Shown: positions 584-49,788 of the stretch, one piece after another
How the letters are laid out: each line of letters opens with the position of its first letter
Position numbering within the stretch: position 1 is the stretch's first letter
Source: a virus
Taxonomy: Duplodnaviria > Heunggongvirae > Uroviricota > Caudoviricetes
Strand: one strand, 5' to 3'
Length of the DNA: 49,788 nt
Virus record (IMG/VR): IMGVR_UViG_2718217868_000004
Span: 1-49,788 of that record
The notes under the pieces: generated by a model
What the model was told of the DNA's origin: nothing
The model's input: the letters and a program-made list of their open reading frames with translations, nothing else
Database searches by the model: none
Position numbers and translations under genes: made by a program

Positions 584-1447
584 GTGAAGTTATCGGCCAG
601 GCCGGCCCGTGGCAATCTATTAAACGTCGGTTTGGGAGATACAGTTACACCCAACTTCGGCAGCCTTGAAATCGGAGCCAAAAAGCCCTCTTCAGCCAGC
701 TTCGTTGACTTCCATTTTCTTGGCTCGAATGACTATGACGCGCGCATCCTTTGCGGTGGCAATTCCAATGGAGCTAATGGCAAAGGGGACTTTACATTTT
801 ATGCAGGAAAATACGTGTTTATCGGAGACAGTTTCGAGTTCCGTAATCCAATTAACTGCCAAAACAGCATCAGCGCCGATGGCACACTAAGAGCAACCAC
901 GTCGTCAAACATATGGGCTTCCAGCGATACGCAGAATGCGCACCTGTGGTTTTACGGGGTCGGTGGGAATGCATCGCGCGGGGTAATCTATGCACCTAAG
1001 GACGGTATGATCCTACTCAGACCGGACAGCAACGATAACGGTGGCGCGAATGGCTATAATTTTTCGTTTGAATCATCTGGCCGGTTCACCTGTATTTCGG
1101 TAAACCAGACCTCTGACGAACGAGTTAAGTTTGACAAAGAGCCCGTCAGTAACGCTCTGGAGAAGATTTGTACCCTGACGGGCTACACATTCGGCATTCA
1201 GCTCACCGAATCAGCGACGGTACGAAGCGCAGGCATTATCGCCCAGGAACTGGAGCAGGTTCTGCCGGTTGCTGTGAGTTCTGACGGCACCGGCACAACA
1301 CCTGCTGGAGAAGAAATTACCGCTCTCAAAACCGTGGACTACAGTGCAATGAGTGCCCTGTATGTGGAGGCGATAAAGGAGCTTGCCGAGCGTGTCAGAA
1401 GCTTAGAAAGAGAACTGCGTGAACTTTGCAGCCCATCGGCTACCTAA
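584..1447 (+). CDS. Alternative tail fiber distal module A with C-terminal intramolecular-chaperone (peptidase S74-like) domain; probably the silent copy in this orientation
   Basis: C-terminus SDERVK...AGIIAQELEQVLP...VDYSAMSALYVEAIKEL matches the endosialidase-chaperone domain pattern; reading frame crosses the left crossover site encoding VGLG; converges tail-to-tail with module B. Confidence 0.6.
   Translation: MKLSARPARGNLLNVGLGDTVTPNFGSLEIGAKKPSSASFVDFHFLGSNDYDARILCGGNSNGANGKGDFTFYAGKYVFIGDSFEFRNPINCQNSISADGTLRATTSSNIWASSDTQNAHLWFYGVGGNASRGVIYAPKDGMILLRPDSNDNGGANGYNFSFESSGRFTCISVNQTSDERVKFDKEPVSNALEKICTLTGYTFGIQLTESATVRSAGIIAQELEQVLPVAVSSDGTGTTPAGEEITALKTVDYSAMSALYVEAIKELAERVRSLERELRELCSPSAT
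615..640. repeat. Left crossover site of invertible segment (gix/hix-like, 26 bp, core TC near 627-628)
   Basis: ATCTATTAAACG-TC-GGTTTGGGAGAT is an imperfect palindrome and matches the reverse complement of the site at 2038-2063 in its core (AAAsGTCGGTTTrGGA); 57 bp from the invertase start. Confidence 0.55.
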
Positions 1448-1998
1448 TCCACCACCCGTTTCTCTAGTCCCTTCACACGGATTGTCAGCGCTTTGATTGC
1501 CGCCAGCGCATCGAGCACAAGAGGGTTGAGGTCTAGGGTCATTTTCCCCGACTCCTCAGCCGAGTGAACATATTGCGGATCTATCTTTTCCAGTTCCTGA
1601 GCAACAACACCTCGGCGTATCGTTTTCTCTTCATCAGCAAGGTAGTAGAAGGTCTTAAAATCCATTGCCACGATGTTGGCCAGAGACACTTCTAAATTAA
1701 GTTCTCCAGTAACCTTCTTGAAATTTATGTCCGATGTACCTGCAGACTGCAGCTGCGCCCACGGCGCTGATGATTTTGGTGTTTGAGGGTCAGTGGTTGT
1801 TAGAAAACGGCTGAATACCGCACTACCGTAAGTAATCCACAGCTGCGCAATTCGCTGCCCGGTGTAGGAACTCTGAAACCCACAGCCATTCGTAGGAGCC
1901 CACAGAGTATTGCCATCAGCATCACTGATGAAGGATGAACTGGCATCTGTGGGCTTATTTTGGAGAACAGCACCAACCCCAAAAGCTCCCACCTGCAT
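1444..1998 (-). CDS. Alternative tail fiber distal module B with C-terminal intramolecular-chaperone (S74-like) domain; copy currently facing the constant fiber gene
   Basis: C-terminus RRGVVAQELEKIDPQYV...LVLDALAAIKAL resembles the S74 chaperone domain; ATG at 1998 with AGGGA RBS; frame is open upstream through the right crossover site (IKVGLG). Confidence 0.6.
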   Translation of the reverse strand: MQVGAFGVGAVLQNKPTDASSSFISDADGNTLWAPTNGCGFQSSYTGQRIAQLWITYGSAVFSRFLTTTDPQTPKSSAPWAQLQSAGTSDINFKKVTGELNLEVSLANIVAMDFKTFYYLADEEKTIRRGVVAQELEKIDPQYVHSAEESGKMTLDLNPLVLDALAAIKALTIRVKGLEKRVVD

Positions 1999-2037
1999 AA
2001 CATTCCCTGCCGCAGTTCCGACATCCTTTGTCGCACT

Positions 2038-2063
2038 ACTTCCTAAACCGACCTTTATTCACC
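2038..2063. repeat. Right crossover site of invertible segment (gix-like, core GA near 2050-2051)
   Basis: ACTTCCTAAACC-GA-CCTTTATTCACC; TTCCT..AAACCGA..TTT resembles the Mu gix site as remembered; inverted relative to the 615-640 site; contains the stop codon of the upstream fiber gene. Confidence 0.55.
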
Positions 2064-3413
2064 TTCATCGTCAGTCATGGAGAGCTCAGTAGCTCTCATT
2101 CTATGGTTGTATAAAGAATCGGCAGGCATTTCGACACGCACGGACACAAACTGGTCACGGGGGATATCGACCGGGTCGCCATCATTGATACCCTGTAGCT
2201 CGTTCCTGGCGAACGCCGGTGCTTCCGGGTGTGTACGGTGATAGGTTTTCACCAGCACAGAACCGTCCGCATTAACTTCGTAATCCAGCCAGATGAGCGG
2301 CTGCTTGTTGCGGTCGGTGGGGATATCAAAACCGCCATCGATGCCGCCCCAGGCTGCGTCTGAGTTCATTCCCTCACATCCTTCAACCAGATATTCACCG
2401 ACGGCAAGACGGGTTACAGTGCAGCCTTCTGATTCATCGTTAGTCTGGTATGTACCATCCGAAAACATCTTTAACACCGGCGATGCGGCTTTTAGAGTGC
2501 CATCGCTGGCACGAGTTGTATTGATGGTGGTATAGACTGCAAACCAATCGGAATAATTGCCAGCTGCATATTTAGTTCGCCCTGCGATTCCCTTTTGAGT
2601 GATTACGCATTGGGCATTGAACAACCCAGCCCCAACATTCAATGCCACTCCATAATAGTTAATTAGCGATTCCCCTATGCTTTTCGAAGGTGAGCCTTCC
2701 CCCGCACCATTTCCGTCATCAAACTGGCGGCCATAGATGCCAGAACCACCGTAGTTGGGAGAGGCATCAGGCATATCAGTGGTGCTATTCCAGTTTTTGT
2801 TATTGGTTGTCCCAGTAAAAACTTGCTCAACTATTTGCAGGCTATTCCTTGCATCTTTAGCTGAGTTGGCACCCGTCCCACCTAAGCTGACAGGTACCAC
2901 ACCTTTGCTATCTACCAAACCGAGGTTTGTGCGAGCGTCTGCTGCAGTCGTTGCCCCGGTCCCGCCGTCTGCAACAGCAAGCGCACCGTTGCTCCCTTTC
3001 TGCGCAAGTTTACCGATGCCTGGGATGGTTACGGCGGTGCCGTTGATGGTAACTGTGATGCTTTGGTTTGCTGAGGTGGTGGCGAACGTCTCCCACGCGC
3101 CAATATTCTCGTCATATTCTTTGATGAGCTGCGACATTGCCTGGGCCAGTCCGTCGACGGAGATAATGTCTGACACCAGAATGGCGTATTTCTGGCCGCT
3201 CAGCGCCGGAGAAGCTGCAGGCGTAATCGTCATTGACGTGGCGCTGTTCACGGATGAAATCTGGAACAGCTGCACCGGGTTAGACATCACGATAATTGTC
3301 TGCCCAGCGCGAACCTGGCTGGCCGGTGCCGTCCAGTTTGTGCCCGTCCCGGTGGCGGTATTTCCATTAATGGCGATGGTGCCGGTGTTATAAAGCATAT
3401 TTTCTCCAGGCAA
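2055..3413 (-). CDS. Side tail fiber protein (Stf-like, constant part); probable true start at ATG 3398
   Basis: Gly/Thr-rich N-terminus and repeated GGTGA..DARxNLGL phage tail fiber repeats; GGAG RBS before the ATG at 3398; stop codon sits inside the right crossover site. Confidence 0.8.
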   Translation of the reverse strand: MPGENMLYNTGTIAINGNTATGTGTNWTAPASQVRAGQTIIVMSNPVQLFQISSVNSATSMTITPAASPALSGQKYAILVSDIISVDGLAQAMSQLIKEYDENIGAWETFATTSANQSITVTINGTAVTIPGIGKLAQKGSNGALAVADGGTGATTAADARTNLGLVDSKGVVPVSLGGTGANSAKDARNSLQIVEQVFTGTTNNKNWNSTTDMPDASPNYGGSGIYGRQFDDGNGAGEGSPSKSIGESLINYYGVALNVGAGLFNAQCVITQKGIAGRTKYAAGNYSDWFAVYTTINTTRASDGTLKAASPVLKMFSDGTYQTNDESEGCTVTRLAVGEYLVEGCEGMNSDAAWGGIDGGFDIPTDRNKQPLIWLDYEVNADGSVLVKTYHRTHPEAPAFARNELQGINDGDPVDIPRDQFVSVRVEMPADSLYNHRMRATELSMTDDEGE

Positions 3414-4781: not shown

Positions 4782-7700
4782 TCAGAACACCCCCGTTAAT
4801 CGGCCAACCTGCACTCTCAGAACGTTGTTGCCATCCTTGACGCTGATTGTCTGGTTGGTCTGCTTCATGGCTCCCTCCCCAGCTGTCGAACCGTAGTTCT
4901 CAAACGTCCCGGACTTATCCAGTTTCCAGCCAACAGAGCCGGCAACATAATTGTTCGACTGGATGTAATTGCCAATTTTTGCATTGCTTATGGTCCCGTC
5001 GCCAATGACTGTATCCCTGATAATGGCCTGGCCATTCTGGATAACGAACGGCAGTGTTACAGTCCCGCCGACCATAGTAGTCACGGCGAAACGGTCTGCC
5101 AGGAAGATTACCTGTGACTGCATGCCGGAGGGTGTATTTTGAACCCCAATACCCATCCCGGCAGCGTAATACTGCCCGTTACTGGACACCCCCACCTTGA
5201 TGTTATACATCGCGCTGAGGTTACCGTTTACATCTGCTATAGCCTGTGCGTTGACGTTTATCGCTGCACTGTTTTCGCCTGATTTAACAGTCAGAGTGTT
5301 GATTTTTGTTGCCGAAGCCTGGGTGAAATCAGCAAGAGTTTCTGTCAGGTCCGTTGAGTTAGAGATATTGCCACCAGCTTCTGCATCCAGTGTGACCAGC
5401 GCGCGTGCGACCGCCTGGCTGGTATCGGCAATCGTAGTATCCACTCTGTCTATACTGGCACTGTTCCCGGCGTTCGTGGCGGTCTGCGAGCGACGGCTTA
5501 CCACCTGCGCCAGCCCATTCTGAATAATCGCGATTGCCGAGTTCTTCACTCCTCCCGTCATGCCGTCCATCGACACAGAAATCTCGTCGATCTTCACTTC
5601 GGCCTGAGCCAGCCCGTCAGCGTTCTCCAGGATGTCTTTCGCCTGCTGCTCGAGTTCGTCGGCATGGTTTTTAATTTCGTCAGCCATGCCAGCAATTTTT
5701 TCGTTGCTGTCCACCGCGTTCTCGATCAGATCTTTGAACGTATCGGAGCCTTTCATGTCCTCCAGGATTGCATCGGTGATATCGGAAACATCGATGCTGG
5801 CCTGCCCGCGCACCCAGTCTGTCCAGTCGCTCTGATTCCCGATGCGGTCAACCAGCCGTGCCCGGTACCAGAATTCCTGCCCTGCCTTCAGCCCCATCTG
5901 CTGATAGAGTTTCTGAGGATACGGCACCGACGCCAAAAGCATTGGATTTGCCCCATCGACTGAAGCGCTGTATTGCAGTTCCGTGCTCAGGGTGTCGGCG
6001 GTATCTGCGGGGAAACCCCATGTAATGTTGATCCCAAATACAACATCCTCTGTTGCTGTTAGTCCGACAGGTTTGGGCACTTCACCGGTGCGGCCGGTAA
6101 GATGGGTCAACGCAGACGTGGCCCAAAGGCTGGACGCTCCCCCAGAGTTAATCGCACGGACGCGCACAAGGTAATCGCCCTCGAAAATGCCAGGCACTTC
6201 GATATTTCGTAACCCGGTTTCAGGCACGTTTACCCATTCGTTATTTCCGCGCTTCCACTGTGCCCGGTACGCTATTACGTCCGACTGCAGTTTGCCGTCT
6301 TTATCAATTGGCGCATCCCACGAGGCGGTTAGCGTGGCCACGCGTTGCCCCTGGCGAACCGCATCATAGCTCGATACCACGATGTTGGTCGGCTGGTTAA
6401 CTAGCCCGGTCGGAATCAGGCTTATCGGAGGAGTATCGAGGCGAGCGTTGTTATCAACGGCGTCGTATTTCGACGCGTTATACTCCGCACCGGTAATGGT
6501 GAAGGTGTTTTCCTCATCATCAAATTTTAGGTTCGTTACCCGGAAATACTGCAGGCGCAGCTGACCAGCATCAATGACGAATACGGCATTAGGTAATGGC
6601 GCCGCCGTGAACGGCGTGGACAGGATCAGCTGCGTGCCATTTACGGCCTGTATCACCCGGCTTTCAACGGTACCGCCCTGGGTGCGAATCATCAGCGTAT
6701 CGCCCGCCACCGCACTGGTGCCCCGGTCAATGGTCACGGCCTTAAGACCAGCGTTATACCCGGTGATACGCCCGCCGTAAACGCGCCCTGACAGGCGTTC
6801 ATCTGCAAACGCAAATACGGTGCCCGGCACGAATACAAAGCCATCAAGTCCAGTCTGAAGCGTGATAATGCGGTCAAGGGAGTTGGAATACACCGCCCAC
6901 CCGCCACGCCGCTGCGCCTCGCTCTCACGCGTACAACCGATCGCAGTGATTTGTGTCTGCTTAAACTTGAACTGCCTTACCAGTTCCGGAAACATCACTG
7001 CCGTGGTGCGGTCCTGGTAGTGGTTATCCGGATCGCTGAAGTTAATCAGCGCGCTGGAGAATCGGTTTTTCTCACTGCCACTCGAGTACACCGGCTTACC
7101 CACCACTGATGCGCGAGTGAGGATCTGCAACTTCGTAGTGTCCGCCGGCATGTCAGAGACAACATTGAACATGTTGTTGCCCCAGAAAGTCATTCCGTTG
7201 AAGCCCGCGGCAATATCTTTAATCACCTGCCAGGCATCAGCCTGGGACTGGATGTAAACGTCAAACATGAAGCGTGGCTCGGTACCGCTTCCGCCTTTCC
7301 CGTCGGGTACCTTCTGGTCGCAGCGCTGGGCGATGCGATAGAGCTCCCACTTATCGAGCATTTCTGGCGTCACGCGGCGCCCAAGGCCGAAGCGCGGCTC
7401 AGTCAGAACATCGAACCAAATCCACGCCGGGTTATTCGTCCAGCCCCATTTAAACGTCCCGTCCCATGTTCCGCTATAAGTCCGCGCTATTGGATCATAG
7501 TTCGAAGGGATTCGGATGATGCGCCCCTTCGGCATGCAGGAAATCTTAGGGATGTTGTTGAATGACTTTGCGTTAAAGGACACGTACAGCAGCGCTGTGT
7601 GTGGATATCGCAGGCGAGCATCGATCACTTCAGTAATCGCTTGCACCTGCGTTTTGTTCTGCAGCATCTGGCTGGTGCTGTCATCGGTGTCACGCACCAC

Positions 7701-34596: not shown

Positions 34597-36585
34597 CTAA
34601 GCCGCTATTTGTTTCGATTGGCATAGTTCCGGCAAATTAGCACGCACCAGCGCTTCAGCGAACGGCGGTGGCACCGCGTTACCGCAGCGGGCAACCTGTT
34701 TATCCTTCGCGTACTTCTTGCCCCGGTAGTCCTGGTCGATGATGTACCAGTCCGGGAAGCCCTGCGCCCGGTACAGTTCGCGCGGCTGTAACATGCGCAT
34801 ACCAATATCAACAATGCGATACGTCACGCCATCGATCACCACCAACCCGGTACAATCCTCACCACAGTATTTGCGCAGGAACGCCAGCGTTTGTTGCGCG
34901 CGTTCTTCGTCGTACTCATCTACGGCAAGATGAGTTTCAACGTTCCCTACATGCAGGCCACCAGCCGTGACAGTCGGCATTGGCGCGTCGGTGCGTTGTC
35001 CATCCCGGCAGGTTCCGCGCAATTTAACCAGGTGAGAAGCAACCACAGCATGGTGATCGACGGTGGTCACAGAATGCATCGGCTCATCCATCCCCACTCC
35101 GGCGCCCTGGTAATTCCCGCCGTAATGTTTAATGAGATGTGCAGCGGCAACCGCAAATTTATTACCGCCAGCGGTGACCGTGCCAAGCGGGCTATCAAGT
35201 TTCAGCACACGCGGCTCTTGCCCTGGACGTTCGCCATAACCCATCTGAATCAGCGTTGGCGTCACCAGCTGTGATTTACCGCCACCGCCCGCGGTGATAG
35301 TTGCGCTCGGTTCGTCTGCCCGGTGGCCGATACTGGCACCAAACTGCCGGGCAATAACCGGAGCCACCAGGCAACTGCGCGATTGCTTCAGAATAGTGTG
35401 AGCGGGTTTATTTAGTGGGCGCGGCTTCGCCTGATATTCACTGCCCCCATTGCCAGCCAGGAACGGAGTGATCGCCGCCTCAACCAACCCAAGAGCATGA
35501 CCATTGCCGCCCGGGCGCACCGACGTCCCAGCTGTGACAGTGGGCACAGGTTCGGTAACGGGCTGCCCGGTTGCGCCAGTACGGAACTTTGTCAGGTGTG
35601 GAACGGCTAACGCGTAGCCGTGGGTTTTCGTAATGGTCTGCAGAGGCTCTCTCAGCGCCTGCCCACGGAAACAGTCGTATTTCCCTTTGGTCGTCGTGTG
35701 GTTGCACTTGACGATGAACGGCGACGCGCTCTCGATCACAAACCGCTGGATGCCACGAGCGATGCGTTTGAGCGTATTTTCAGCCAGTGGCTTTTTGCGG
35801 TCGAATATCGACGGTGCCGGAATGGTCCAGTCGATACACTCCGCAGCTGTACGCCATGGCGCCAACTTTCCACTCTGCACAGCTGGAGATTTCGGGTCGC
35901 CGTGGGTCGGGTCCGGCCAGGTCACCGGCATACCATCGCAACGCATTACCATGAAGAAACGCTTCCTGATGGTCGGTGCGCCAAAGTCGCAGGCGCGCAG
36001 CTCACGATGATCAACAGCGTAACCCAGCCCGGCCACCAGTTGCTGCGCCAGTTCGCCGTCGGCAGTAATACCCAGGAACTCGCAGCACTCCGCCAGCGCC
36101 GGATGACCGGCAGGAATACCACCGGATAGCATGCCGCAGAAAGCCTCGAAGGTCTCACCAGTACGCAGGGGATTTGGACGTAACCCACCATCAGCAGATT
36201 CGATAAGCGGCCCCCAGGTGCGGAACTCTTCAACGTTCTCCAGCATCATCACACGGGGACGTACCGCCAGCGCCCAGCGAATGACAATCCACGCCAAACC
36301 ACGAATCTCTTTCTCTACCGGCTTTGAACCTTTAGCCTTTGAGAAGTGACGGCAATCAGGGGAAAACCATGCCAGCCCCACCGGGCGGCCAGCGGTCGCT
36401 ACGATGGGATCGACATCAAACACCGATTCGCAGTAGTGCAGTGTATCCGGGTGGTTCGTAGTGTGCATCGCAACAGCGTTCGGGTCGTGGTTAATCGCAA
36501 TATCCACACTACGACCGATCGCCAGCTCAATGCCCGTGCTCGCCCCGCCGCCGCCGGCAAAGTTATCAACGATGATTTCTCTCAC
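34597..36585 (-). CDS. Orphan DNA cytosine-5 methyltransferase; start at GTG overlapping the upstream stop
   Basis: Motif I FAGGGG, PC-type catalytic motif (SPDC) and ENV motif (LENV); GGAGAAA RBS before a GTG that overlaps the upstream TGA; no restriction endonuclease gene nearby. Confidence 0.8.
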   Translation of the reverse strand: MREIIVDNFAGGGGASTGIELAIGRSVDIAINHDPNAVAMHTTNHPDTLHYCESVFDVDPIVATAGRPVGLAWFSPDCRHFSKAKGSKPVEKEIRGLAWIVIRWALAVRPRVMMLENVEEFRTWGPLIESADGGLRPNPLRTGETFEAFCGMLSGGIPAGHPALAECCEFLGITADGELAQQLVAGLGYAVDHRELRACDFGAPTIRKRFFMVMRCDGMPVTWPDPTHGDPKSPAVQSGKLAPWRTAAECIDWTIPAPSIFDRKKPLAENTLKRIARGIQRFVIESASPFIVKCNHTTTKGKYDCFRGQALREPLQTITKTHGYALAVPHLTKFRTGATGQPVTEPVPTVTAGTSVRPGGNGHALGLVEAAITPFLAGNGGSEYQAKPRPLNKPAHTILKQSRSCLVAPVIARQFGASIGHRADEPSATITAGGGGKSQLVTPTLIQMGYGERPGQEPRVLKLDSPLGTVTAGGNKFAVAAAHLIKHYGGNYQGAGVGMDEPMHSVTTVDHHAVVASHLVKLRGTCRDGQRTDAPMPTVTAGGLHVGNVETHLAVDEYDEERAQQTLAFLRKYCGEDCTGLVVIDGVTYRIVDIGMRMLQPRELYRAQGFPDWYIIDQDYRGKKYAKDKQVARCGNAVPPPFAEALVRANLPELCQSKQIAA

Positions 36586-36839
36586 GCGTATTTCTCCATA
36601 GCGGTGGCCAGTGACTGGGCGGCGTTTACGATGGCTGGTACCGGCATTTTCTCCAGCCACATACGGTTGATGTGATGCTTCAGGCGGCGCTGGTGATGCG
36701 CCGGGAGATCCCCGGCACTTTCAATCTGGCTATATACCATTCCCACCTCAGCAGGCCAGACGGTTTCGGTCACATCCACCAGCAGCAGGTTTTCCAGTTC
36801 GACGATGCGTTTCGTGGCGTATTCCAGTTGAGGTTCCAT
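36582..36839 (-). CDS. Hypothetical protein translationally coupled to the methyltransferase
   Basis: 85-aa ORF whose stop TGA overlaps the methyltransferase GTG start. Confidence 0.45.
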   Translation of the reverse strand: MEPQLEYATKRIVELENLLLVDVTETVWPAEVGMVYSQIESAGDLPAHHQRRLKHHINRMWLEKMPVPAIVNAAQSLATAMEKYA

Positions 36840-40523: not shown

Positions 40524-41063
40524 TCATATAGCCCCCAGCATCATCTGCACCATCTCCATCAGTGGACCGGTTAACCCAGGGTCAACGCGATACATCTCCA
40601 CGATCCCCTCGCTCAACTCTTTCAGCTTTTGATGGCGTGGCGCATCCATTGCGACGGCAATCTTCGCTTCGCTGGTTTCTTTCTCCAGCCGAGCCAGGCG
40701 GGCCATAACGTTGTCTTCTGGTAGCAGACGGTTGCGGTATTCAATCGGCAGGACCGCCAGGATTGCCGGAGTCAGCTGGCGAACGTTCTCACGGTACCGT
40801 TCGCTGTTGAAATGGTTATCCAGGAAGCGGAAAAGCTTCTGCCGCTTTCGGCAGAGATCGTCAGGGAAAGTGATGTCATAACCACCCTGCGCCCGGTACT
40901 CTTCGACGATCAGAGCAGAAACGACATCCTGACCATCTACACCCGCCCATGAACGAACGGCATTTCGAATATCTTCGTGACACGGCCCCTTATAGGTTTG
41001 AGCGCGATTTATCACCGCTTGTTGCGGTACTCCTGTATCCTGGTAAAACGTAAGTGATTGCAT
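40524..41063 (-). CDS. YdaT-like protein (CII-analog family of Rac-type immunity regions)
   Basis: Segments EEYRAQGGYDITF and TPAILAVLPIEYRNRL resemble E. coli Rac YdaT as remembered; located right after the Cro-like gene. Confidence 0.55.
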   Translation of the reverse strand: MQSLTFYQDTGVPQQAVINRAQTYKGPCHEDIRNAVRSWAGVDGQDVVSALIVEEYRAQGGYDITFPDDLCRKRQKLFRFLDNHFNSERYRENVRQLTPAILAVLPIEYRNRLLPEDNVMARLARLEKETSEAKIAVAMDAPRHQKLKELSEGIVEMYRVDPGLTGPLMEMVQMMLGAI

Positions 41064-41094: not shown

Positions 41095-41322
41095 TCAGGC
41101 TACTTTTGGTTTGCTGATTTCAAGAATTTGGGTGGTGGTAAAGCGACCACCTGAGGCCTCAGCAATTTTCGATGCATAAGCTGTCTCACCGGTGTAATCA
41201 GTACGTGGCAAGCACCCACTATTGATCCACTTGTAAATTGCTCGCGGAGTCCGCTCGCATGCTTTGGCCACCACGGGTACGCGAATCAATTTGATGATTT
41301 CGCCAAGGCTTGTTGGTTGCAT
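41095..41322 (-). CDS. Cro/YdaS-like HTH regulator
   Basis: 75 aa with HTH (ERTPRAIYKWINSGCLP), divergent from the cI-like repressor. Confidence 0.7.
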   Translation of the reverse strand: MQPTSLGEIIKLIRVPVVAKACERTPRAIYKWINSGCLPRTDYTGETAYASKIAEASGGRFTTTQILEISKPKVA

Positions 41323-41337
41323 TTTTTAACCCTCAAT

Positions 41338-41376
41338 ATGAACTGTAAGTACATATTATGTCGGAACTGATAGTTC
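41338..41376. promoter_or_regulatory. OR-like operator region: two imperfect palindromes (ATGAACT-N3-AGTACAT and GAACT-N3-AGTTC) between cro and cI
   Basis: Directly visible palindromes; the same 17-bp motif recurs near 43331-43347. Confidence 0.5.
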
Positions 41377-42113
41377 ACGCAAGAGATATTATGATTGAAC
41401 CTATGGTTCAGGAAGAAAAAGCGCGAAAAGACTTTTCCCATAGGCTAGCGCTGGCCTGCGATAAAGCTGGTTTGCCGGTTCATGGTCGTCAGGCTGAGAT
41501 AGCCAAAAAGATGAAGTTGACACCAAAGGCCGTAAGCAAATGGTTTAACGGGGAATCAATTCCAAGACGCGGGAAGCTGCAAGAGCTTGCTGCGAGTATT
41601 GGTACAACTTCAACTTACCTGTTAGGTGACAGCGAGGTTGATGGAATATCTGAGGGACGCTTGCAGAAATCGACAGAAATATTTCGCATAGATGTGCTCA
41701 ATGTATCTGTCAGTGCAGGCCCGGGCGTGATCAATAGCGAGTTCGTGGAGGTGCTTCGCTCTGTGGAATACTCAGTTGAAGATGCGCGCCAAATGTTCAA
41801 CGGACGAAAGCAGGAACAAATCCGCATCATCAACGTCCGCGGAGACAGCATGTCTGGCACGATAGAGCCGGGTGATCTGCTTTTTGTCGATATCAGCATC
41901 CAACACTTTGATGGTGATGGAATTTACGCTTTCCTGTACGACGAAACAGCTCATGTTAAGCGACTTCAGAAGATGAAAGACAAACTACTGGTAATCTCAG
42001 ACAACCAGACCTATCGCCCGTGGGAGCCAATTGAGAAGGAAGAGATGAACAAGATTTTCGTCTTCGGAAAGGTGATCGGCAGCATGCCGCAGACCTACAG
42101 GAAGCATGGTTAG
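41358..42113 (+). CDS. CI-like repressor with HTH and S24 (LexA-like) autopeptidase domain; probable start at ATG 41391
   Basis: HTH (GRQAEIAKKMKLTPKAVSKW), S24 catalytic Ser (GDSM) and Lys (HVKRLQK); AAGAGA RBS before 41391. Confidence 0.9.
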   Translation: MSELIVHARDIMIEPMVQEEKARKDFSHRLALACDKAGLPVHGRQAEIAKKMKLTPKAVSKWFNGESIPRRGKLQELAASIGTTSTYLLGDSEVDGISEGRLQKSTEIFRIDVLNVSVSAGPGVINSEFVEVLRSVEYSVEDARQMFNGRKQEQIRIINVRGDSMSGTIEPGDLLFVDISIQHFDGDGIYAFLYDETAHVKRLQKMKDKLLVISDNQTYRPWEPIEKEEMNKIFVFGKVIGSMPQTYRKHG

Positions 42114-42181
42114 CAAACTAACAGTGGCCAGATGATACGTTTGGGTGATTATTTTTATTTTTCACAGCAATAGGATGATTT

Positions 42182-42523
42182 ATGACACAGTTTCAACTTG
42201 CGTTAATCGCCAGAGAAGTTGATGGAGAAGTCATCCATCTTCGCACCAAAGACGGATACATCAATGCCACATCAATGTGCAAGTCTGCAGGGAAGCTACT
42301 TGCCGACTATACACGACTAAAAACAACACAAGATTTTTTTGATGAATTATCACGCGATATGGGGATTCCCATATCGGAGTTAATTCAATCATTTAAAGGC
42401 GGAAGAGCAGAGAATCAAGGGACTTGGGTTCATCCAGACATCGCAATTAATTTAGCTCAGTGGCTATCTCCAAAATTTGCAGTGCAAGTATCGAGATGGG
42501 TGCGTGAGTGGATGTCAGGCTAA
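42182..42523 (+). CDS. KilA-N domain protein (standalone)
   Basis: 113 aa with KilA-N pattern (DGYINATSMCKSAGK...GTWVHPDIAINLAQWLSPKF); RBS AGGATGA; no terminator between cI and this gene. Confidence 0.75.
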   Translation: MTQFQLALIAREVDGEVIHLRTKDGYINATSMCKSAGKLLADYTRLKTTQDFFDELSRDMGIPISELIQSFKGGRAENQGTWVHPDIAINLAQWLSPKFAVQVSRWVREWMSG

Positions 42524-42562
42524 AGAGCGCCTGCCGAACTCCCTATCCACCTTAAGCGGTAT

Positions 42563-42943
42563 ATGACAAACCGAGGCAGGGCTCCTCATACGCACTTTTC
42601 TATGCTTAATGAACTGACGTTTAACTTGGTTGCGCCACTTGAACAAGCCGGATATACGCTGCCTGAAAAAATGGTTCCTGATATTTCAGAAGGTAGGGTT
42701 TTCTCGCAATGGCTCCGTGACAACCGGGGTATTGAGCCGAAGACATTCCCAACATATAACCATGAGTACCCAGATGGCCGGACATTCCCGGTACGTCTAT
42801 ACCCAAACGAATATCTTGCAGATTTCAAACAGCACTTCAACGAAGTGTGGCTGCCTCAGTACGCTCCTAAATATTTTGCTGAACGAGACCAAAGGGCATT
42901 GACGTTGATTGAGAAAATCATGCTGCCTGACCTTGATTCCTAA
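42563..42943 (+). CDS. Hypothetical protein, last gene of the cI operon
   Basis: 126-aa ORF followed within 10 bp by a strong terminator. Confidence 0.5.
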   Translation: MTNRGRAPHTHFSMLNELTFNLVAPLEQAGYTLPEKMVPDISEGRVFSQWLRDNRGIEPKTFPTYNHEYPDGRTFPVRLYPNEYLADFKQHFNEVWLPQYAPKYFAERDQRALTLIEKIMLPDLDS

Positions 42944-42952
42944 ATGCCACAG

Positions 42953-42978
42953 CCCGGCCACCGCGCCGGGTTTTTATT
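42953..42978 (+). terminator. Rho-independent terminator ending the cI - KilA-N - orf126 operon
   Basis: CCCGGC-caccgc-GCCGGG stem followed by TTTTTATT. Confidence 0.65.
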
Positions 42979-43198
42979 GCCCTTTCCTCACGAACTCCGC
43001 CGCATCCCGCAATACACCTTTGTGAATCATATTGCCCACGGTTTTTCGCTTCGCTTCCAGTCGATCGACAATAGCCTCACAGTCAATCACCACACCGTCG
43101 ATTATCAACTCAACAACCGCCCCACCAATCTCACCAGCTATGAAAGCTGCGCGATCTTCCAGCAATTCATCACGTGACATATCCATACCTAAGCCCAT
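42974..43198 (-). CDS. Hypothetical small acidic protein convergent with the cI operon
   Basis: 74-aa ORF; weak RBS; real start may be the internal ATG near 43186. Confidence 0.35.
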   Translation of the reverse strand: MGLGMDMSRDELLEDRAAFIAGEIGGAVVELIIDGVVIDCEAIVDRLEAKRKTVGNMIHKGVLRDAAEFVRKGQ

Positions 43199-48400: not shown

Positions 48401-48598
48401 ATGGATGATATTTTGGTAACGTCAGACCTGACCAGTCGCTACAAAATTTCACGCAAAACCCTTTGGTCATGGCAAAGTGCAGACACAATGCCTCGGGGCT
48501 TCGTATGCCCGTTCCCACCCCCTGACTGGCCCGGCAACCCTAACCGCTGGCGCTCTGAGTCAATCAAAGAGTGGGAGGATAAAAAGAAGATAAATTAA
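48401..48598 (+). CDS. Excisionase / AlpA-family DNA-binding protein (track ORF starts at 48356)
   Basis: 65 aa from the ATG with GGAGAGAG RBS; pattern ...[10 protein letters not shown]...[10 protein letters not shown] is typical of AlpA/Xis HTH proteins. Confidence 0.6.
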
Positions 48599-49788
48599 CT
48601 GAAGGGCTCTCCGATGATCTCTTCAAGATGGCTCTGCCAAACGCGGAGCCAGTGTTTCTGATCATCGATATAGTCATGAAGGTTGTAATGCGCCATAACC
48701 CCCACCATCTGATGCCCGAGCAGCTTTTCAATTACGTGCGGCGGGCAACCTAACTCAGAGAGATTTGTGGCTATCGTCCGCCTCATATCATGAAGCGACC
48801 ACTCTGCCATACCTGTTCCATTCCAAATAGAACGGGCGTAATTGGATGCCACAGGTGAATGAACGGGCGAATCTTTGATCCCGCCATCAATTTTACGTTG
48901 TGAAGTCACCAGGTGATTGGTGTTTATTTTCTTGAGGTGATTTCTGACCAGGTTAACGGCGGCGTCTGAGAGTCCCCTTCTAATATGTACCCGAGTTTTA
49001 TAACTGCCCGCAGGCACGACCCACTCATTATCATCCAATCGAAACCATGATCTCTCACTAAGTCGAATCTCAGCCGTACGGCATCCGGTAAGCATAATAA
49101 ATTTCACCAGGAAAACGGACTCTATCGACATATGGCTTTTCAACCACTGATAGATTTTGCGCAGATCGTCATCGTCCATCCTGCGAGTTCTCTTTTTAGG
49201 CTTTTGCCCGACATCAGATGGCAGTAATCCCTCGAGTGGGTTTGAGGCGATCACACTTCTGTTAACGCAGAACCTAAACGCCCGTTTGCACAGCGAAAGC
49301 ATGTAATGAGCCATCACCCTGCTTTCTATAGAATCGAAGACGTTGATCCAGTGCATTTTCGCTGTGTTATCGACTTTGACATTCTTCATCGGTTCGGCGA
49401 TATGTTTCTCAAACACCTGGCGATAGTAATCGACTTTAACTAGCCCGTTAGCGATACAGTGCCTTTCAATCCAGTAATTGAACGCTTCGGCAACGGACAT
49501 CGCTTCCTGTCGGGTCTGCTTATCCAGCTTCACCTGCTCTCGCGGATCCAGTCCCTCAGTTAACCAGTTTCTGAATTGTTGGCGACGCTCTCTTGCCTGG
49601 GTGATACTCATTGCAGGATAATCACCAACATTGAGTTTTACCGCTTTACCGGCCCAGCGATACCGATAGAAAAATGATATTTTTCCGGCCTGGCTGATTC
49701 TGGCGTTGAGCCCGTGCGAATCAGAAATAATCTCGATATCATCTCTTTTCTTGCCGAGCGCCTTCCTGAGCTTTGTGTCGGTGATCAT
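48595..49788 (-). CDS. Tyrosine integrase (P4-like family)
   Basis: 397 aa; N-terminal arm-binding-like region and C-terminal catalytic region with HxxR...Y signature (AHYNLHDY); gene start coincides with the window end. Confidence 0.9.

What the first reader, a model, noticed from the sequence alone, without database searches (positions are those of the whole stretch)
42114..43198. Two cargo genes (KilA-N protein and a 126-aa protein) co-transcribed with cI in the rexAB position
No terminator separates cI from the KilA-N gene (42182-42523) and the 126-aa gene (42563-42943), and a strong terminator follows directly at about 42953-42978. This is the layout of the lambda cI-rexA-rexB operon, which is expressed in the lysogen and confers phage exclusion. 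KilA-N is normally the N-terminal domain of antirepressors; a standalone KilA-N co-expressed with the repressor is unexpected, and the 126-aa partner and the convergent 74-aa ORF are unrecognised. This is the best candidate in the window for an undescribed prophage-encoded superinfection-exclusion or abortive-infection module.
Basis: partly seen in the sequence, partly recalled or inferred. Interest (0 to 1): 0.7.

Follow-up and report, generated by a model that had tools for sequence, protein, structure and literature searches.

The report
Broken BstA phage-defence gene after cI
The two "cargo genes" behind the prophage repressor are the two halves of a single gene of the already described BstA abortive-infection family, cut in two by one premature stop codon, so this is a probably inactive copy of a known phage-defence system, not a new one.

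Summary
The ORFs, the missing terminator after cI and the strong terminator at 42951-42972 are all real. But 42182-42943 is one reading frame of 253 codons with a single in-frame TAA at 42521-42523 (codon 114). Sister prophages in the same Rac-like context carry GAA there and encode one 253-aa protein. ORF1 is a KilA-N domain. ORF2 is the Pfam BstA_C domain (PF26567). Both halves hit PHROG 6287, "BstA abortive infection system". BstA (Owen et al. 2021) is a known defence protein encoded directly downstream of prophage repressors. The stop lies in the interdomain linker. The 13 codons between it and the next ATG encode four family-invariant residues, which neither ORF retains. The same E114* allele makes up about 30% of sampled copies, and most of those also carry a 2-nt frameshift deletion in the C-terminal half. 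That pattern is decay, not a maintained two-gene split. The 74-aa convergent ORF belongs to the pL region, not to this module. Interest is low.

The parts
41358..42113 (+). cI-type prophage repressor (251 aa; gene callers also use a start at 41391, giving 240 aa). The locus is probably co-transcribed with it.
   Evidence: Pfam HTH_3 plus Peptidase_S24. PHROG 4 transcriptional repressor, E 1.4e-54. A divergent cro-like gene lies at 41095-41322 on the minus strand.
42122..42148 (+). Recombination scar: the last 8 codons and stop of a lambda-type cI gene (CAG TGG CCA GAT GAT ACG TTT GGG TGA = QWPDDTFG*), lying downstream of the resident cI stop. It marks the left edge of the imported bstA-like module.
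   Evidence: in the L016/L042-type loci the same sequence is the in-frame end of a cI gene (...GKVIASQWPEETFG*). Similarity between different prophage contexts starts here. The 'terminator-like' hairpin (42128-42144) lies inside this remnant.
42172..42175 (+). Shine-Dalgarno-like AGGA, 6 nt before the ATG at 42182.
   Evidence: Read directly from the sequence. Conserved in all alleles that are at least 95% identical.
42182..42943 (+). One bstA-family reading frame (253 codons plus terminal stop), interrupted by a single in-frame stop.
   Evidence: colinear with the intact 762-nt gene of E. coli ML35 and phage PhiR5_2, with no gaps and 97.5% nt identity. Both halves hit PHROG 6287 BstA.
42182..42523 (+). 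ORF1: the N-terminal KilA-N DNA-binding domain fragment (113 aa).
   Evidence: Pfam KilA-N, E 1.3e-27, residues 13-112. PHROG 6287 positions 6-121. In the AF2 model of the intact relative P0001 (86% identical), this domain matches the Mbp1/APSES DNA-binding domains.
42521..42523 (+). Premature TAA, codon 114 (GAA to TAA, Glu114 to stop), in the interdomain linker.
   Evidence: alignment: GGC TAA here, GGT GAA or GGC GAA in intact alleles.. The linker spans residues 113-121, which have no secondary structure and a pLDDT dip.
42524..42562 (+). 13 codons (RAPAELPIHLKRY) translated in neither ORF. They encode the family-invariant residues P121, H123, R126 and Y127.
   Evidence: Invariant columns of the 38-sequence family alignment A2, and translation. 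No in-frame ATG, GTG or TTG occurs before 42563 (read).
42563..42943 (+). ORF2: the remnant of the BstA C-terminal domain (126 aa from Met128, a conserved internal Met; PGAP aa starting at 42602).
   Evidence: PF26567 BstA_C precomputed for this product. PADLOC BstA, E 3.3e-19. PHROG 6287 positions 164-301. 29% identity to BstA of BTP1, E 5e-15. hhalign probability 97.8%.
42951..42977 (+). Rho-independent terminator closing the cI-bstA unit. It is also the right edge of the mobile module.
   Evidence: -14.6 kcal/mol hairpin plus T-run. The hairpin is conserved across contexts, and similarity between contexts ends just after it.

Best explanation
The region is a single gene of the BstA family of prophage abortive-infection proteins: an N-terminal KilA-N DNA-binding domain followed by a C-terminal BstA_C domain. 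It sits in the slot directly downstream of the prophage repressor, the position of rexAB in lambda.

It arrived as a compact module, made up of the tail of a lambda-type cI gene, a ~32-nt spacer, the gene and its terminator.

In this prophage a G-to-T change turned codon 114 (GAA) into TAA, in the linker between the two domains. The cI transcript should therefore yield at most a 113-aa KilA-N fragment. A C-terminal fragment could start only at Met128, which has a poor ribosome-binding site. That fragment would lack four invariant residues.

By analogy with the bstA^STOP mutants of Owen et al., defence is most likely lost.

In its intact form the protein is expected to work as BstA does:
- it is made in the lysogen;
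- it relocates to the replicating DNA of an incoming phage;
- it blocks phage DNA replication at the cost of the infected cell;
- it is switched off for the prophage's own replication by a short cognate DNA element (aba) at the 5' end of the locus.

Shown here: the single frame, the nonsense codon, the domain identities, the synteny, the module borders, and the decay of sister alleles.

Inferred: co-transcription with cI, loss of function, the BstA-like mechanism for this subfamily, and the presence of any aba element.
For: One frame with one stop:
-.

Family identity:
- Both halves hit PHROG 6287 'BstA abortive infection system' (E 4.1e-28 and 4.4e-45), on adjacent parts of the profile (6-121 and 164-301 of 304).
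- ORF2 is PF26567 BstA_C. That is the only Pfam family precomputed for all 120 listed relatives of BTP1 BstA.
- PADLOC BstA, E 2.5e-20.
- BLASTP to BstA-BTP1, E 5e-15.
- Profile-profile probability 97.8%, E 1.2e-12.

Synteny:
- The order cI, bstA, terminator, small convergent ORF matches BTP1, and matches the conserved architecture described in PMC8585504.

The intact form is the norm:
- 2748 relatives at E <= 1e-5. Of the 120 listed, all but two fragments (172 and 153 aa) are single proteins of 241-311 aa, and all but one of those fragments carry both KilA-N and BstA_C.
- The intact 253-aa proteins occur on 924 and 670 contigs.
- Intact alleles 99.2-99.3% identical to the window sit in the same Rac-like context (L035, L047, L062, L063).

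Loss of function:
- The invariant residues P121, H123, R126 and Y127 fall in the untranslated gap.
- All 13 full-length GGT-TAA copies in the IMG/VR and metagenome scans also carry a 2-nt deletion at gene positions 634-635.
- Stop codons in bstA abolish defence in BTP1.

Not a sequencing error:
- The exact 113-aa product is indexed in 39 blocks of the collection, from independent samples.
Against: - No expression data exist for this strain.
- The ~253-aa KilA-N + BstA_C subfamily has not itself been shown to defend against phage. Only three ~300-aa homologues were tested.
- Its N-terminal domain did not align with that of BstA-BTP1 in hhalign.
- No aba-like element with terminal direct repeats could be recognised at the 5' end.
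- In the window allele the C-terminal ORF has no second lesion, so residual function of separately made fragments cannot be excluded from sequence alone.
- The stop allele is common (about 30% of sampled copies; the 113-aa variant P0123 is on at least 1000 contigs). That could mean it is not simply deleterious.
Confidence: 0.85

Rival explanations
1. The truncation is selected, as an 'immunity-only' or regulatory allele. The stand-alone KilA-N fragment, and/or a retained aba-like DNA element at the 5' end, remains useful. It might, for example, protect the phage against cognate BstA made by rival prophages, or bind DNA as a regulator. Meanwhile the costly abortive-infection effector domain has been dropped.
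For: - E114* is frequent: 9 of 31 IMG/VR loci and 7 of 19 metagenome loci. The 113-aa variant P0123 is on at least 1000 contigs.
- The same G-to-T change occurs on at least two haplotype backgrounds (GGC-TAA and GGT-TAA) and in two prophage contexts.
- The stop falls exactly at the domain boundary, so a complete KilA-N domain is made.
- None of the stop-bearing copies has a lesion in the first 113 codons.
- In BTP1, aba immunity survives stop codons in bstA and maps to the 5' end of the locus.
Against: - The sample is too small to show selection. Three indel events fall in the 420-nt downstream part and none in the 339-nt upstream part, which has a probability of about 0.17 under neutrality (my calculation).
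- The GGT-TAA copies share one local context, so their frequency may reflect the spread of one prophage lineage.
- Recombinant haplotypes (L012, L016) show that the stop can move by recombination, so it need not have arisen repeatedly.
- No aba-like repeat was found.
- Many other truncations of the same gene at other positions exist (products of 69-239 aa; a stop at codon 177 in L033 and a frameshift in L066). That fits general decay.
Confidence: 0.1
2. It is a functional two-gene split. The KilA-N and BstA_C domains are made as separate polypeptides, with ORF2 translated by re-initiation at Met128. They assemble into an active defence, so the first reader's two-gene module is real.
For: - Owen et al. 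infer two domains with few contacts between them, and they report homologues that match only the N-terminal region or only the C-terminal region.
- The AF2 model shows two separately folded domains joined by a linker.
- ORF2 modelled alone folds confidently (pLDDT 88.8).
- The window's ORF2 has no further lesion.
Against: - Four invariant residues (P121, H123, R126, Y127), which open the first helix of the C-domain, are lost.
- The ATG at 42563 is just the conserved internal Met128. Its Shine-Dalgarno match is poor (AAGCGG, only 3 nt from the ATG; read).
- In sister stop alleles the C-terminal ORF is frameshifted, so it is not under selection once the stop is present.
- Near-identical prophages carry the fused gene.
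Confidence: 0.04
3. It is an assembly or sequencing artefact: the stop codon is not present in the real genome.
For: None beyond the general possibility. PGAP annotated two separate CDSs without flagging a pseudogene.
Against: - The sequence is identical in two complete genomes (H5, H6).
- Eight further contigs from independent runs and assemblies carry a 762-nt gene sequence identical to the window's.
- The change is a base substitution, not a homopolymer-length error.
- The same stop is seen in many IMG/VR and metagenome contigs.
Confidence: 0.01

Closest known systems
BstA of Salmonella prophage BTP1 (ST313-td; Owen et al. 2021, PMC8585504), with its tested homologues BstA-Ec and BstA-Kp
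   Same: - It shares the C-terminal BstA_C domain: PF26567; 29% identity, E 5e-15; hhalign probability 97.8%. Shared motifs include VPDIS-G, H-YPD and YP...L..F.
- It has an N-terminal KilA-N-type domain.
- It lies immediately downstream of the prophage repressor on the same strand and is closed by its own Rho-independent terminator.
- A small convergent ORF follows, before the pL region.
   Different: - It is about 50 aa shorter (253 vs 307 aa).
- The N-domain is a canonical Pfam KilA-N, whereas in BTP1 the KilA-N likeness is seen only by remote homology. The two N-domains were not aligned by hhalign.
- No aba element with CCCGCC terminal repeats is present.
- This subfamily has not been tested experimentally.
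- In this window the gene is cut by a nonsense codon.
Lambda rexA-rexB
   Same: - It occupies the same slot: directly downstream of cI and co-transcribed with it in the lysogen.
- In sister loci the gene follows a cI whose end reads ...VIASQWPEETFG, which matches the C-terminus of lambda cI as I recall it. That is the position rexA occupies in lambda.
- RexAB is also an abortive-infection type of defence (Discussion of PMC8585504).
   Different: - No sequence relationship: no RexA or RexB family was hit in Pfam, PHROGs or PADLOC.
- It is one protein, not a sensor plus a membrane channel.
- Owen et al. state that the mechanisms are not comparable.
KilA-N antirepressors and Bro/Ant-type proteins (KilA-N N-domain with an ANT or Bro C-domain)
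   Same: The N-terminal KilA-N DNA-binding domain. PHROG 129 'transcriptional regulator' is also hit by ORF1 (E 1.8e-23).
   Different: - The C-terminal partner is BstA_C, not an ANT or Bro-type domain. No such family was hit at E <= 0.1.
- It lies in the repressor operon, not in an antirepressor (immI-like) locus.

Membership tests
BstA (prophage abortive-infection protein, Owen et al. 2021) | Conserved C-terminal domain (Pfam PF26567 BstA_C) | tested here: met
   - PF26567 is recorded for ORF2 and for all 120 listed relatives of BstA-BTP1.
- PADLOC BstA, E 3.3e-19.
- BLASTP, E 5e-15.
- hhalign probability 97.8%.
- PHROG 6287, E 4.4e-45.
BstA (prophage abortive-infection protein, Owen et al. 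2021) | N-terminal KilA-N (-like) DNA-binding domain | tested here: met
   - Pfam KilA-N, E 1.3e-27.
- PHROG 6287 positions 6-121, E 4.1e-28.
- The modelled N-domain matches the Mbp1/APSES folds.
- Caveat: it did not align to the BTP1 N-domain in hhalign.
BstA (prophage abortive-infection protein, Owen et al. 2021) | Both domains on one polypeptide of about 250-310 aa | tested here: not met
   An in-frame TAA at codon 114 (42521-42523) splits the frame. The feature is met in sister alleles (ML35, PhiR5_2, L035, L047 and others). The window therefore holds a disrupted copy of a family member, not an intact one.
BstA (prophage abortive-infection protein, Owen et al. 2021) | Encoded directly downstream of the prophage repressor on the same strand, with its own Rho-independent terminator | tested here: met
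   Same order as in BTP1.
BstA (prophage abortive-infection protein, Owen et al. 2021) | Cognate anti-BstA (aba) DNA element spanning the 5' end of the locus. In BTP1 this is 29 bp upstream plus the first 34 bp of the gene, with terminal direct repeats. | tested here: inconclusive
   - No direct repeats flank 42153-42215. Only short inverted repeats occur there.
- The only CCCGCC...CCCGCC pair in the window is at 6703-6776, in a tail gene, and is compatible with chance.
- The aba sequence is homologue-specific and is defined only for BTP1, so its absence cannot be concluded.
- The module does travel with about 60 bp of upstream sequence.
BstA (prophage abortive-infection protein, Owen et al. 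2021) | Abortive-infection phenotype, with block of incoming phage DNA replication | not testable with these tools
   This needs plaque, survival and replication assays with the intact and the TAA alleles.
Lambda RexAB | Homology to RexA and RexB | tested here: not met
   No RexA or RexB family was hit by either ORF in Pfam, PHROGs or PADLOC. Only the genomic position is shared.
KilA-N antirepressor (Ant/Bro type) | KilA-N domain fused to an ANT or Bro-type C-terminal domain | tested here: not met
   The C-terminal half is BstA_C. No ANT or Bro family was hit at E <= 0.1.

The most novel reading that the evidence does not exclude
The E114* allele is not mere decay but a recurrent or long-lived 'cheater' form of a BstA locus. 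The phage keeps the 5' part of the locus, meaning a cognate aba-like immunity DNA element and/or a stand-alone KilA-N DNA-binding protein. It therefore stays immune to the BstA of related prophages, or interferes with it. At the same time it sheds the suicidal effector domain. This would explain why the same stop, placed exactly at the domain boundary, accounts for about a third of sampled copies.
Probability: 0.1. Interest if true: 0.6.

Novelty: new member of a known kind. Interest (0 to 1): 0.2.

Why it matters
It matters little as a discovery. The family (BstA) and its preferred location behind prophage repressors were published in 2021, and Pfam, PHROGs and PADLOC already model it.

The practical value is in annotation:
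- Two RefSeq CDSs (WP_249530431.1 and WP_249530430.1) are halves of one pseudogenised defence gene.
- A 'stand-alone KilA-N protein' next to cI should be checked for an in-frame stop before it is treated as a new design.

Two side points may deserve a small follow-up:
- The ~253-aa subfamily, a canonical KilA-N fused to BstA_C, is large. It has 2748 relatives at E <= 1e-5 in the searched candidates, and it is untested.
- One nonsense allele at the domain boundary is unusually common.

Tried and rejected
1. Local Pfam scan of ORF2 found nothing. The local copy lacks PF26567. The family surfaced only through the precomputed Pfam tags.
2. NCBIfam has no model for the intact protein or for the 74-aa ORF.
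3. Fold search for the effector domain gave nothing specific:
   - Foldseek of the full model against the PDB matched only the KilA-N/APSES domain.
   - A profile search of PDB sequences found nothing below E 0.3.
   - The biochemical activity of BstA_C therefore stays unknown.
4. Search for an aba-like element (direct repeats around the start codon, and the CCCGCC repeat pattern) gave nothing usable.
5. The idea that the hairpin at 42128-42144 is an attenuator or terminator between cI and the gene is rejected. It is weak, the spacer folds no better than its shuffles, and it is coding sequence in the module's native context.
6. The idea that the 74-aa ORF belongs to the module is rejected. It has no similarity to the small ORF after bstA in BTP1, it is absent from other contexts of the module, and in HK225 it sits next to pL with different cargo.
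7. A literature search for later work linking BstA and KilA-N found none in the held library. The 2022+ papers that mention BstA were listed by title and abstract only. Most look like surveys, reviews or reports on other systems, and none was opened.
9. Rfam and tRNA scans of the window found nothing.
Full report
**What is at the coordinates**

The ORF list confirms a 113-aa ORF at 42182-42523 and a 126-aa ORF at 42563-42943. Both are on the same strand as a 251-aa repressor gene at 41358-42113. A 74-aa ORF lies on the opposite strand at 42974-43198.

- The repressor carries HTH_3 and Peptidase_S24 domains, and ORF1 is a KilA-N domain (E 1.3e-27).
- The terminator scan finds a strong hairpin with a T-run at 42951-42972 (8 pairs, 6 of them G-C). 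Its folding energy is -14.6 kcal/mol.
- Between cI and ORF1 the only hairpin is weak (42128-42144). Its centroid energy is -6.1 kcal/mol, and the spacer folds no better than its shuffles (z = 0.05).

**The two ORFs are one gene**

Both ORFs are in the same frame. Translating 42182-42943 straight through gives 253 codons with a single internal stop...REWMSG*RAPAELPIHLKRYMTNRG....

- The window is 100% identical to E. coli strains H5 and H6. About twenty other complete E. coli genomes carry a copy about 96% identical, annotated as one 'KilA-N domain-containing protein'.
- In E. coli ML35 and phage PhiR5_2 the gene is a 762-nt CDS of exactly the same length.
- The alignment has no gaps within the gene. 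Codons 113-114 read GGT GAA there and GGC TAA in the window.
- The split is thus a Glu114-to-stop nonsense mutation at 42521-42523.

**Which gene it is**

- Both halves hit PHROG 6287, 'BstA abortive infection system, replication inhibitor'. ORF1 matches profile positions 6-121 (E 4.1e-28). ORF2 matches positions 164-301 of 304 (E 4.4e-45).
- The PADLOC BstA model hits the C-terminal half (E 2.5e-20 for the intact protein).
- The precomputed Pfam tag for ORF2 is PF26567, BstA_C. That tag is the only Pfam family on all 120 listed relatives of the prototype, BstA of Salmonella prophage BTP1.
- The intact protein aligns to BstA-BTP1 over the C-domain at 29% identity, E 5e-15.
- A profile-profile comparison of 38 relatives of each type gives 97.8% probability and E 1.2e-12, again for the C-domain only.

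BstA was described by Owen et al. (PMC8585504). Their main points are these:
- It is a protein with a KilA-N(-like) N-domain and a second C-terminal domain.
- It is encoded downstream of prophage repressors in many Gram-negative bacteria.
- It acts by abortive infection and inhibits phage DNA replication.
- It is neutralised for the prophage's own replication by aba, a 63-bp DNA element spanning the 5' end of the locus.

The gene order in BTP1 is the same as here: cI, bstA, terminator, a small convergent ORF, then the pL genes.

**How this copy differs from the tested BstA proteins**

The window type is about 50 aa shorter, at 253 aa. It has a canonical Pfam KilA-N domain. In BTP1 the KilA-N likeness was detected only by remote homology, and the two N-domains were not aligned by hhalign.

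The subfamily is large and uniform. There are 2748 relatives at E <= 1e-5. Of the 120 listed, all but two fragments (172 and 153 aa) are single proteins of 241-311 aa. All but one of those fragments carry both KilA-N and BstA_C.

None of this subfamily has been tested experimentally, as far as the held literature shows. I therefore file it as a member of the BstA family by domain content and synteny, with the phenotype untested.

**Structure**

- An AlphaFold model of an 86%-identical intact relative is confident (pLDDT 90.6). It shows two domains joined by an unstructured linker at residues 113-121, so the stop falls at the start of that linker.
- The N-domain matches the Mbp1/APSES DNA-binding domains, as expected for KilA-N.
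- The C-domain modelled alone is confident (pLDDT 88.8).

The biochemical activity of the effector half therefore remains unknown.

**Is the split functional?**

Three observations argue that it is not.

1. Neither ORF translates the 13 codons between the stop and the next in-frame start. They encode P121, H123, R126 and Y127, which are invariant in the family alignment and open the first helix of the C-domain. The ATG at 42563 is simply the conserved internal Met128. It is preceded by a poor Shine-Dalgarno match (read).
2. Sister alleles with the same stop have decayed further. Scanning IMG/VR and metagenome contigs with a pattern that tolerates any bases at the two variable positions returned 31 and 19 loci.
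   - Sixteen carry TAA at codon 114: 9 in IMG/VR and 7 in metagenomes.
   - All 13 full-length copies of the GGT-TAA type also carry a 2-nt deletion at gene positions 634-635, which frameshifts the C-terminal half.
   - Two of these haplotypes carry a further indel.
3. The same Rac-like prophage context as the window also occurs with an intact allele 99.2-99.3% identical (L035, L047, L062, L063). The loss in the window lineage is therefore recent.

In BTP1, stop codons in bstA abolish defence.

The stop is not an assembly error:
- The exact 113-aa product is indexed in 39 blocks of the collection.
- Eight further contigs from independent samples carry a gene sequence identical to the window's.

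**A point worth recording**

The nonsense allele is common.

- It makes up about 30% of the sampled copies.
- A 113-aa variant (P0123) is recorded on at least 1000 contigs. The two main intact proteins are on 924 and 670 contigs.
- The same G-to-T change is found as GGC-TAA and as GGT-TAA, in a Rac-like and a lambda-like context. Recombinant haplotypes exist (L012, L016).

This could be hitch-hiking of one or two successful prophage lineages plus recombination. It could instead reflect selection for an allele that keeps the 5' end of the locus. The data cannot tell these apart:
- The GGT-TAA copies share one local context.
- The excess of lesions in the downstream part is not significant (three events against none, p about 0.17 by my calculation).
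- Other truncations at other positions also exist: products of 69-239 aa, a stop at codon 177 in L033, and a frameshift in L066.

I keep the selected-truncation reading as the novel case, at about 10%.

**Module borders and transcription**

Comparing the flanks of all loci shows that similarity between different prophage contexts begins at 42122 and ends just after the terminator.

The first 27 bases of the shared part (42122-42148) read QWPDDTFG-stop. In the lambda-like contexts the same stretch is the in-frame end of a cI gene (...GKVIASQWPEETFG-stop), which matches the C-terminus of lambda cI as I recall it. Two things follow:
- The window carries a scar of a lambda-type cI 3' end behind its own, different repressor gene.
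- In the native context only about 32 nt separate the repressor stop from the bstA-like start.

That leaves no room for a terminator. It supports co-transcription with cI, as Owen et al. presume for the family, and it places the gene exactly where rexA sits in lambda.

No aba-like element could be recognised. No direct repeats flank the start codon, and the BTP1 repeat motif is absent there. Because aba elements are specific to each homologue and are defined only for BTP1, this test is inconclusive.

**The 74-aa ORF**

- It belongs to PHROG 3975, of unknown function.
- It has no similarity to the small ORF that follows bstA in BTP1.
- It is absent from most other contexts of the module.
- It has homologues in phages HK225, phi80, HK639 and SW-37.
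- In HK225 it sits next to the pL promoter, with a different cargo (HK97 gp48/gp49-like genes) behind the repressor.

It is a feature of the pL region of this phage group, not of the defence module.

**Verdict**

The claims of two genes and of novelty do not hold, and this particular copy is most likely inactive as a defence. Interest is low.

Noticed in passing
window 42122-42148: A 27-nt remnant of the 3' end of a lambda-type cI gene (QWPDDTFG-stop) lies just downstream of the resident, unrelated repressor's stop codon. It is a recombination scar showing that the defence module was imported from a lambda-cI-type immunity region. It also accounts for the weak 'terminator-like' hairpin reported there.
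   Followed up: yes
window 42974-43198 (-): The 74-aa ORF (PGAP aa) is PHROG 3975, of unknown function. It is convergent with the cI operon and ends right at the terminator. Homologues sit beside pL in phages HK225, phi80, HK639 and SW-37, whatever cargo lies behind cI. In E. coli DY612 the ORF annotated at the same position is marked as a pseudogene with an internal stop (its homology to the 74-aa ORF was not checked).
   Followed up: partly
related loci L020-L066; protein clusters: This BstA-like gene is inactivated often, and in several independent ways, in public data. Lesions include E114* (about 30% of sampled copies), a 2-nt deletion at gene positions 634-635, a stop at codon 177 (L033), a 1-nt indel near codon 240 (L066), and N-terminal fragments of 69-239 aa among the 61 sequences of that cluster. 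This may reflect a cost of carrying the system.
   Followed up: partly
window 40524-41063 (-): A 179-aa protein with a YdaT_toxin domain (Pfam tag) occupies the cII position, between the cro-like gene and replication gene O. That is the arrangement of the Rac prophage. Its role here was not examined.
   Followed up: no
window 34597-36660 (-): A large (687-aa) phage DNA methyltransferase (PHROG 23072 and PHROG 116) lies between the replication genes and the Q antiterminator. It may be an anti-restriction or epigenetic cargo.
   Followed up: no
window 584-3413: The tail-fibre region has oppositely oriented ORFs: a 287-aa tail-fibre C-terminal-like ORF on the plus strand (584-1447), then a 184-aa ORF (1444-1998) and a 452-aa tail-fibre gene (2055-3413) on the minus strand. 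The layout resembles invertible host-range segments. No invertase or inverted repeats were looked for.
   Followed up: no
window, whole: The window is essentially one complete lambdoid prophage with a Rac-like early region. It holds an integrase (48595-49788), RecE/RecT, kil, ydaE, an immunity region, O/P replication genes, Q, terminase, portal, tape measure, J and tail fibres. There are no tRNA genes and no Rfam matches. The structural genes sampled give full-length family matches, so the prophage may still be inducible.
   Followed up: partly
E. coli genomes and phage vB_EcoS-673R7 (L005): A second variant of the same protein (86% aa and about 77% nt identity; the CDS in L005 is 257 aa) occurs in 117 of 5426 complete E. 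coli genomes. In phage vB_EcoS-673R7 it is not adjacent to a repressor gene, so the family is not confined to the slot behind cI.
   Followed up: no
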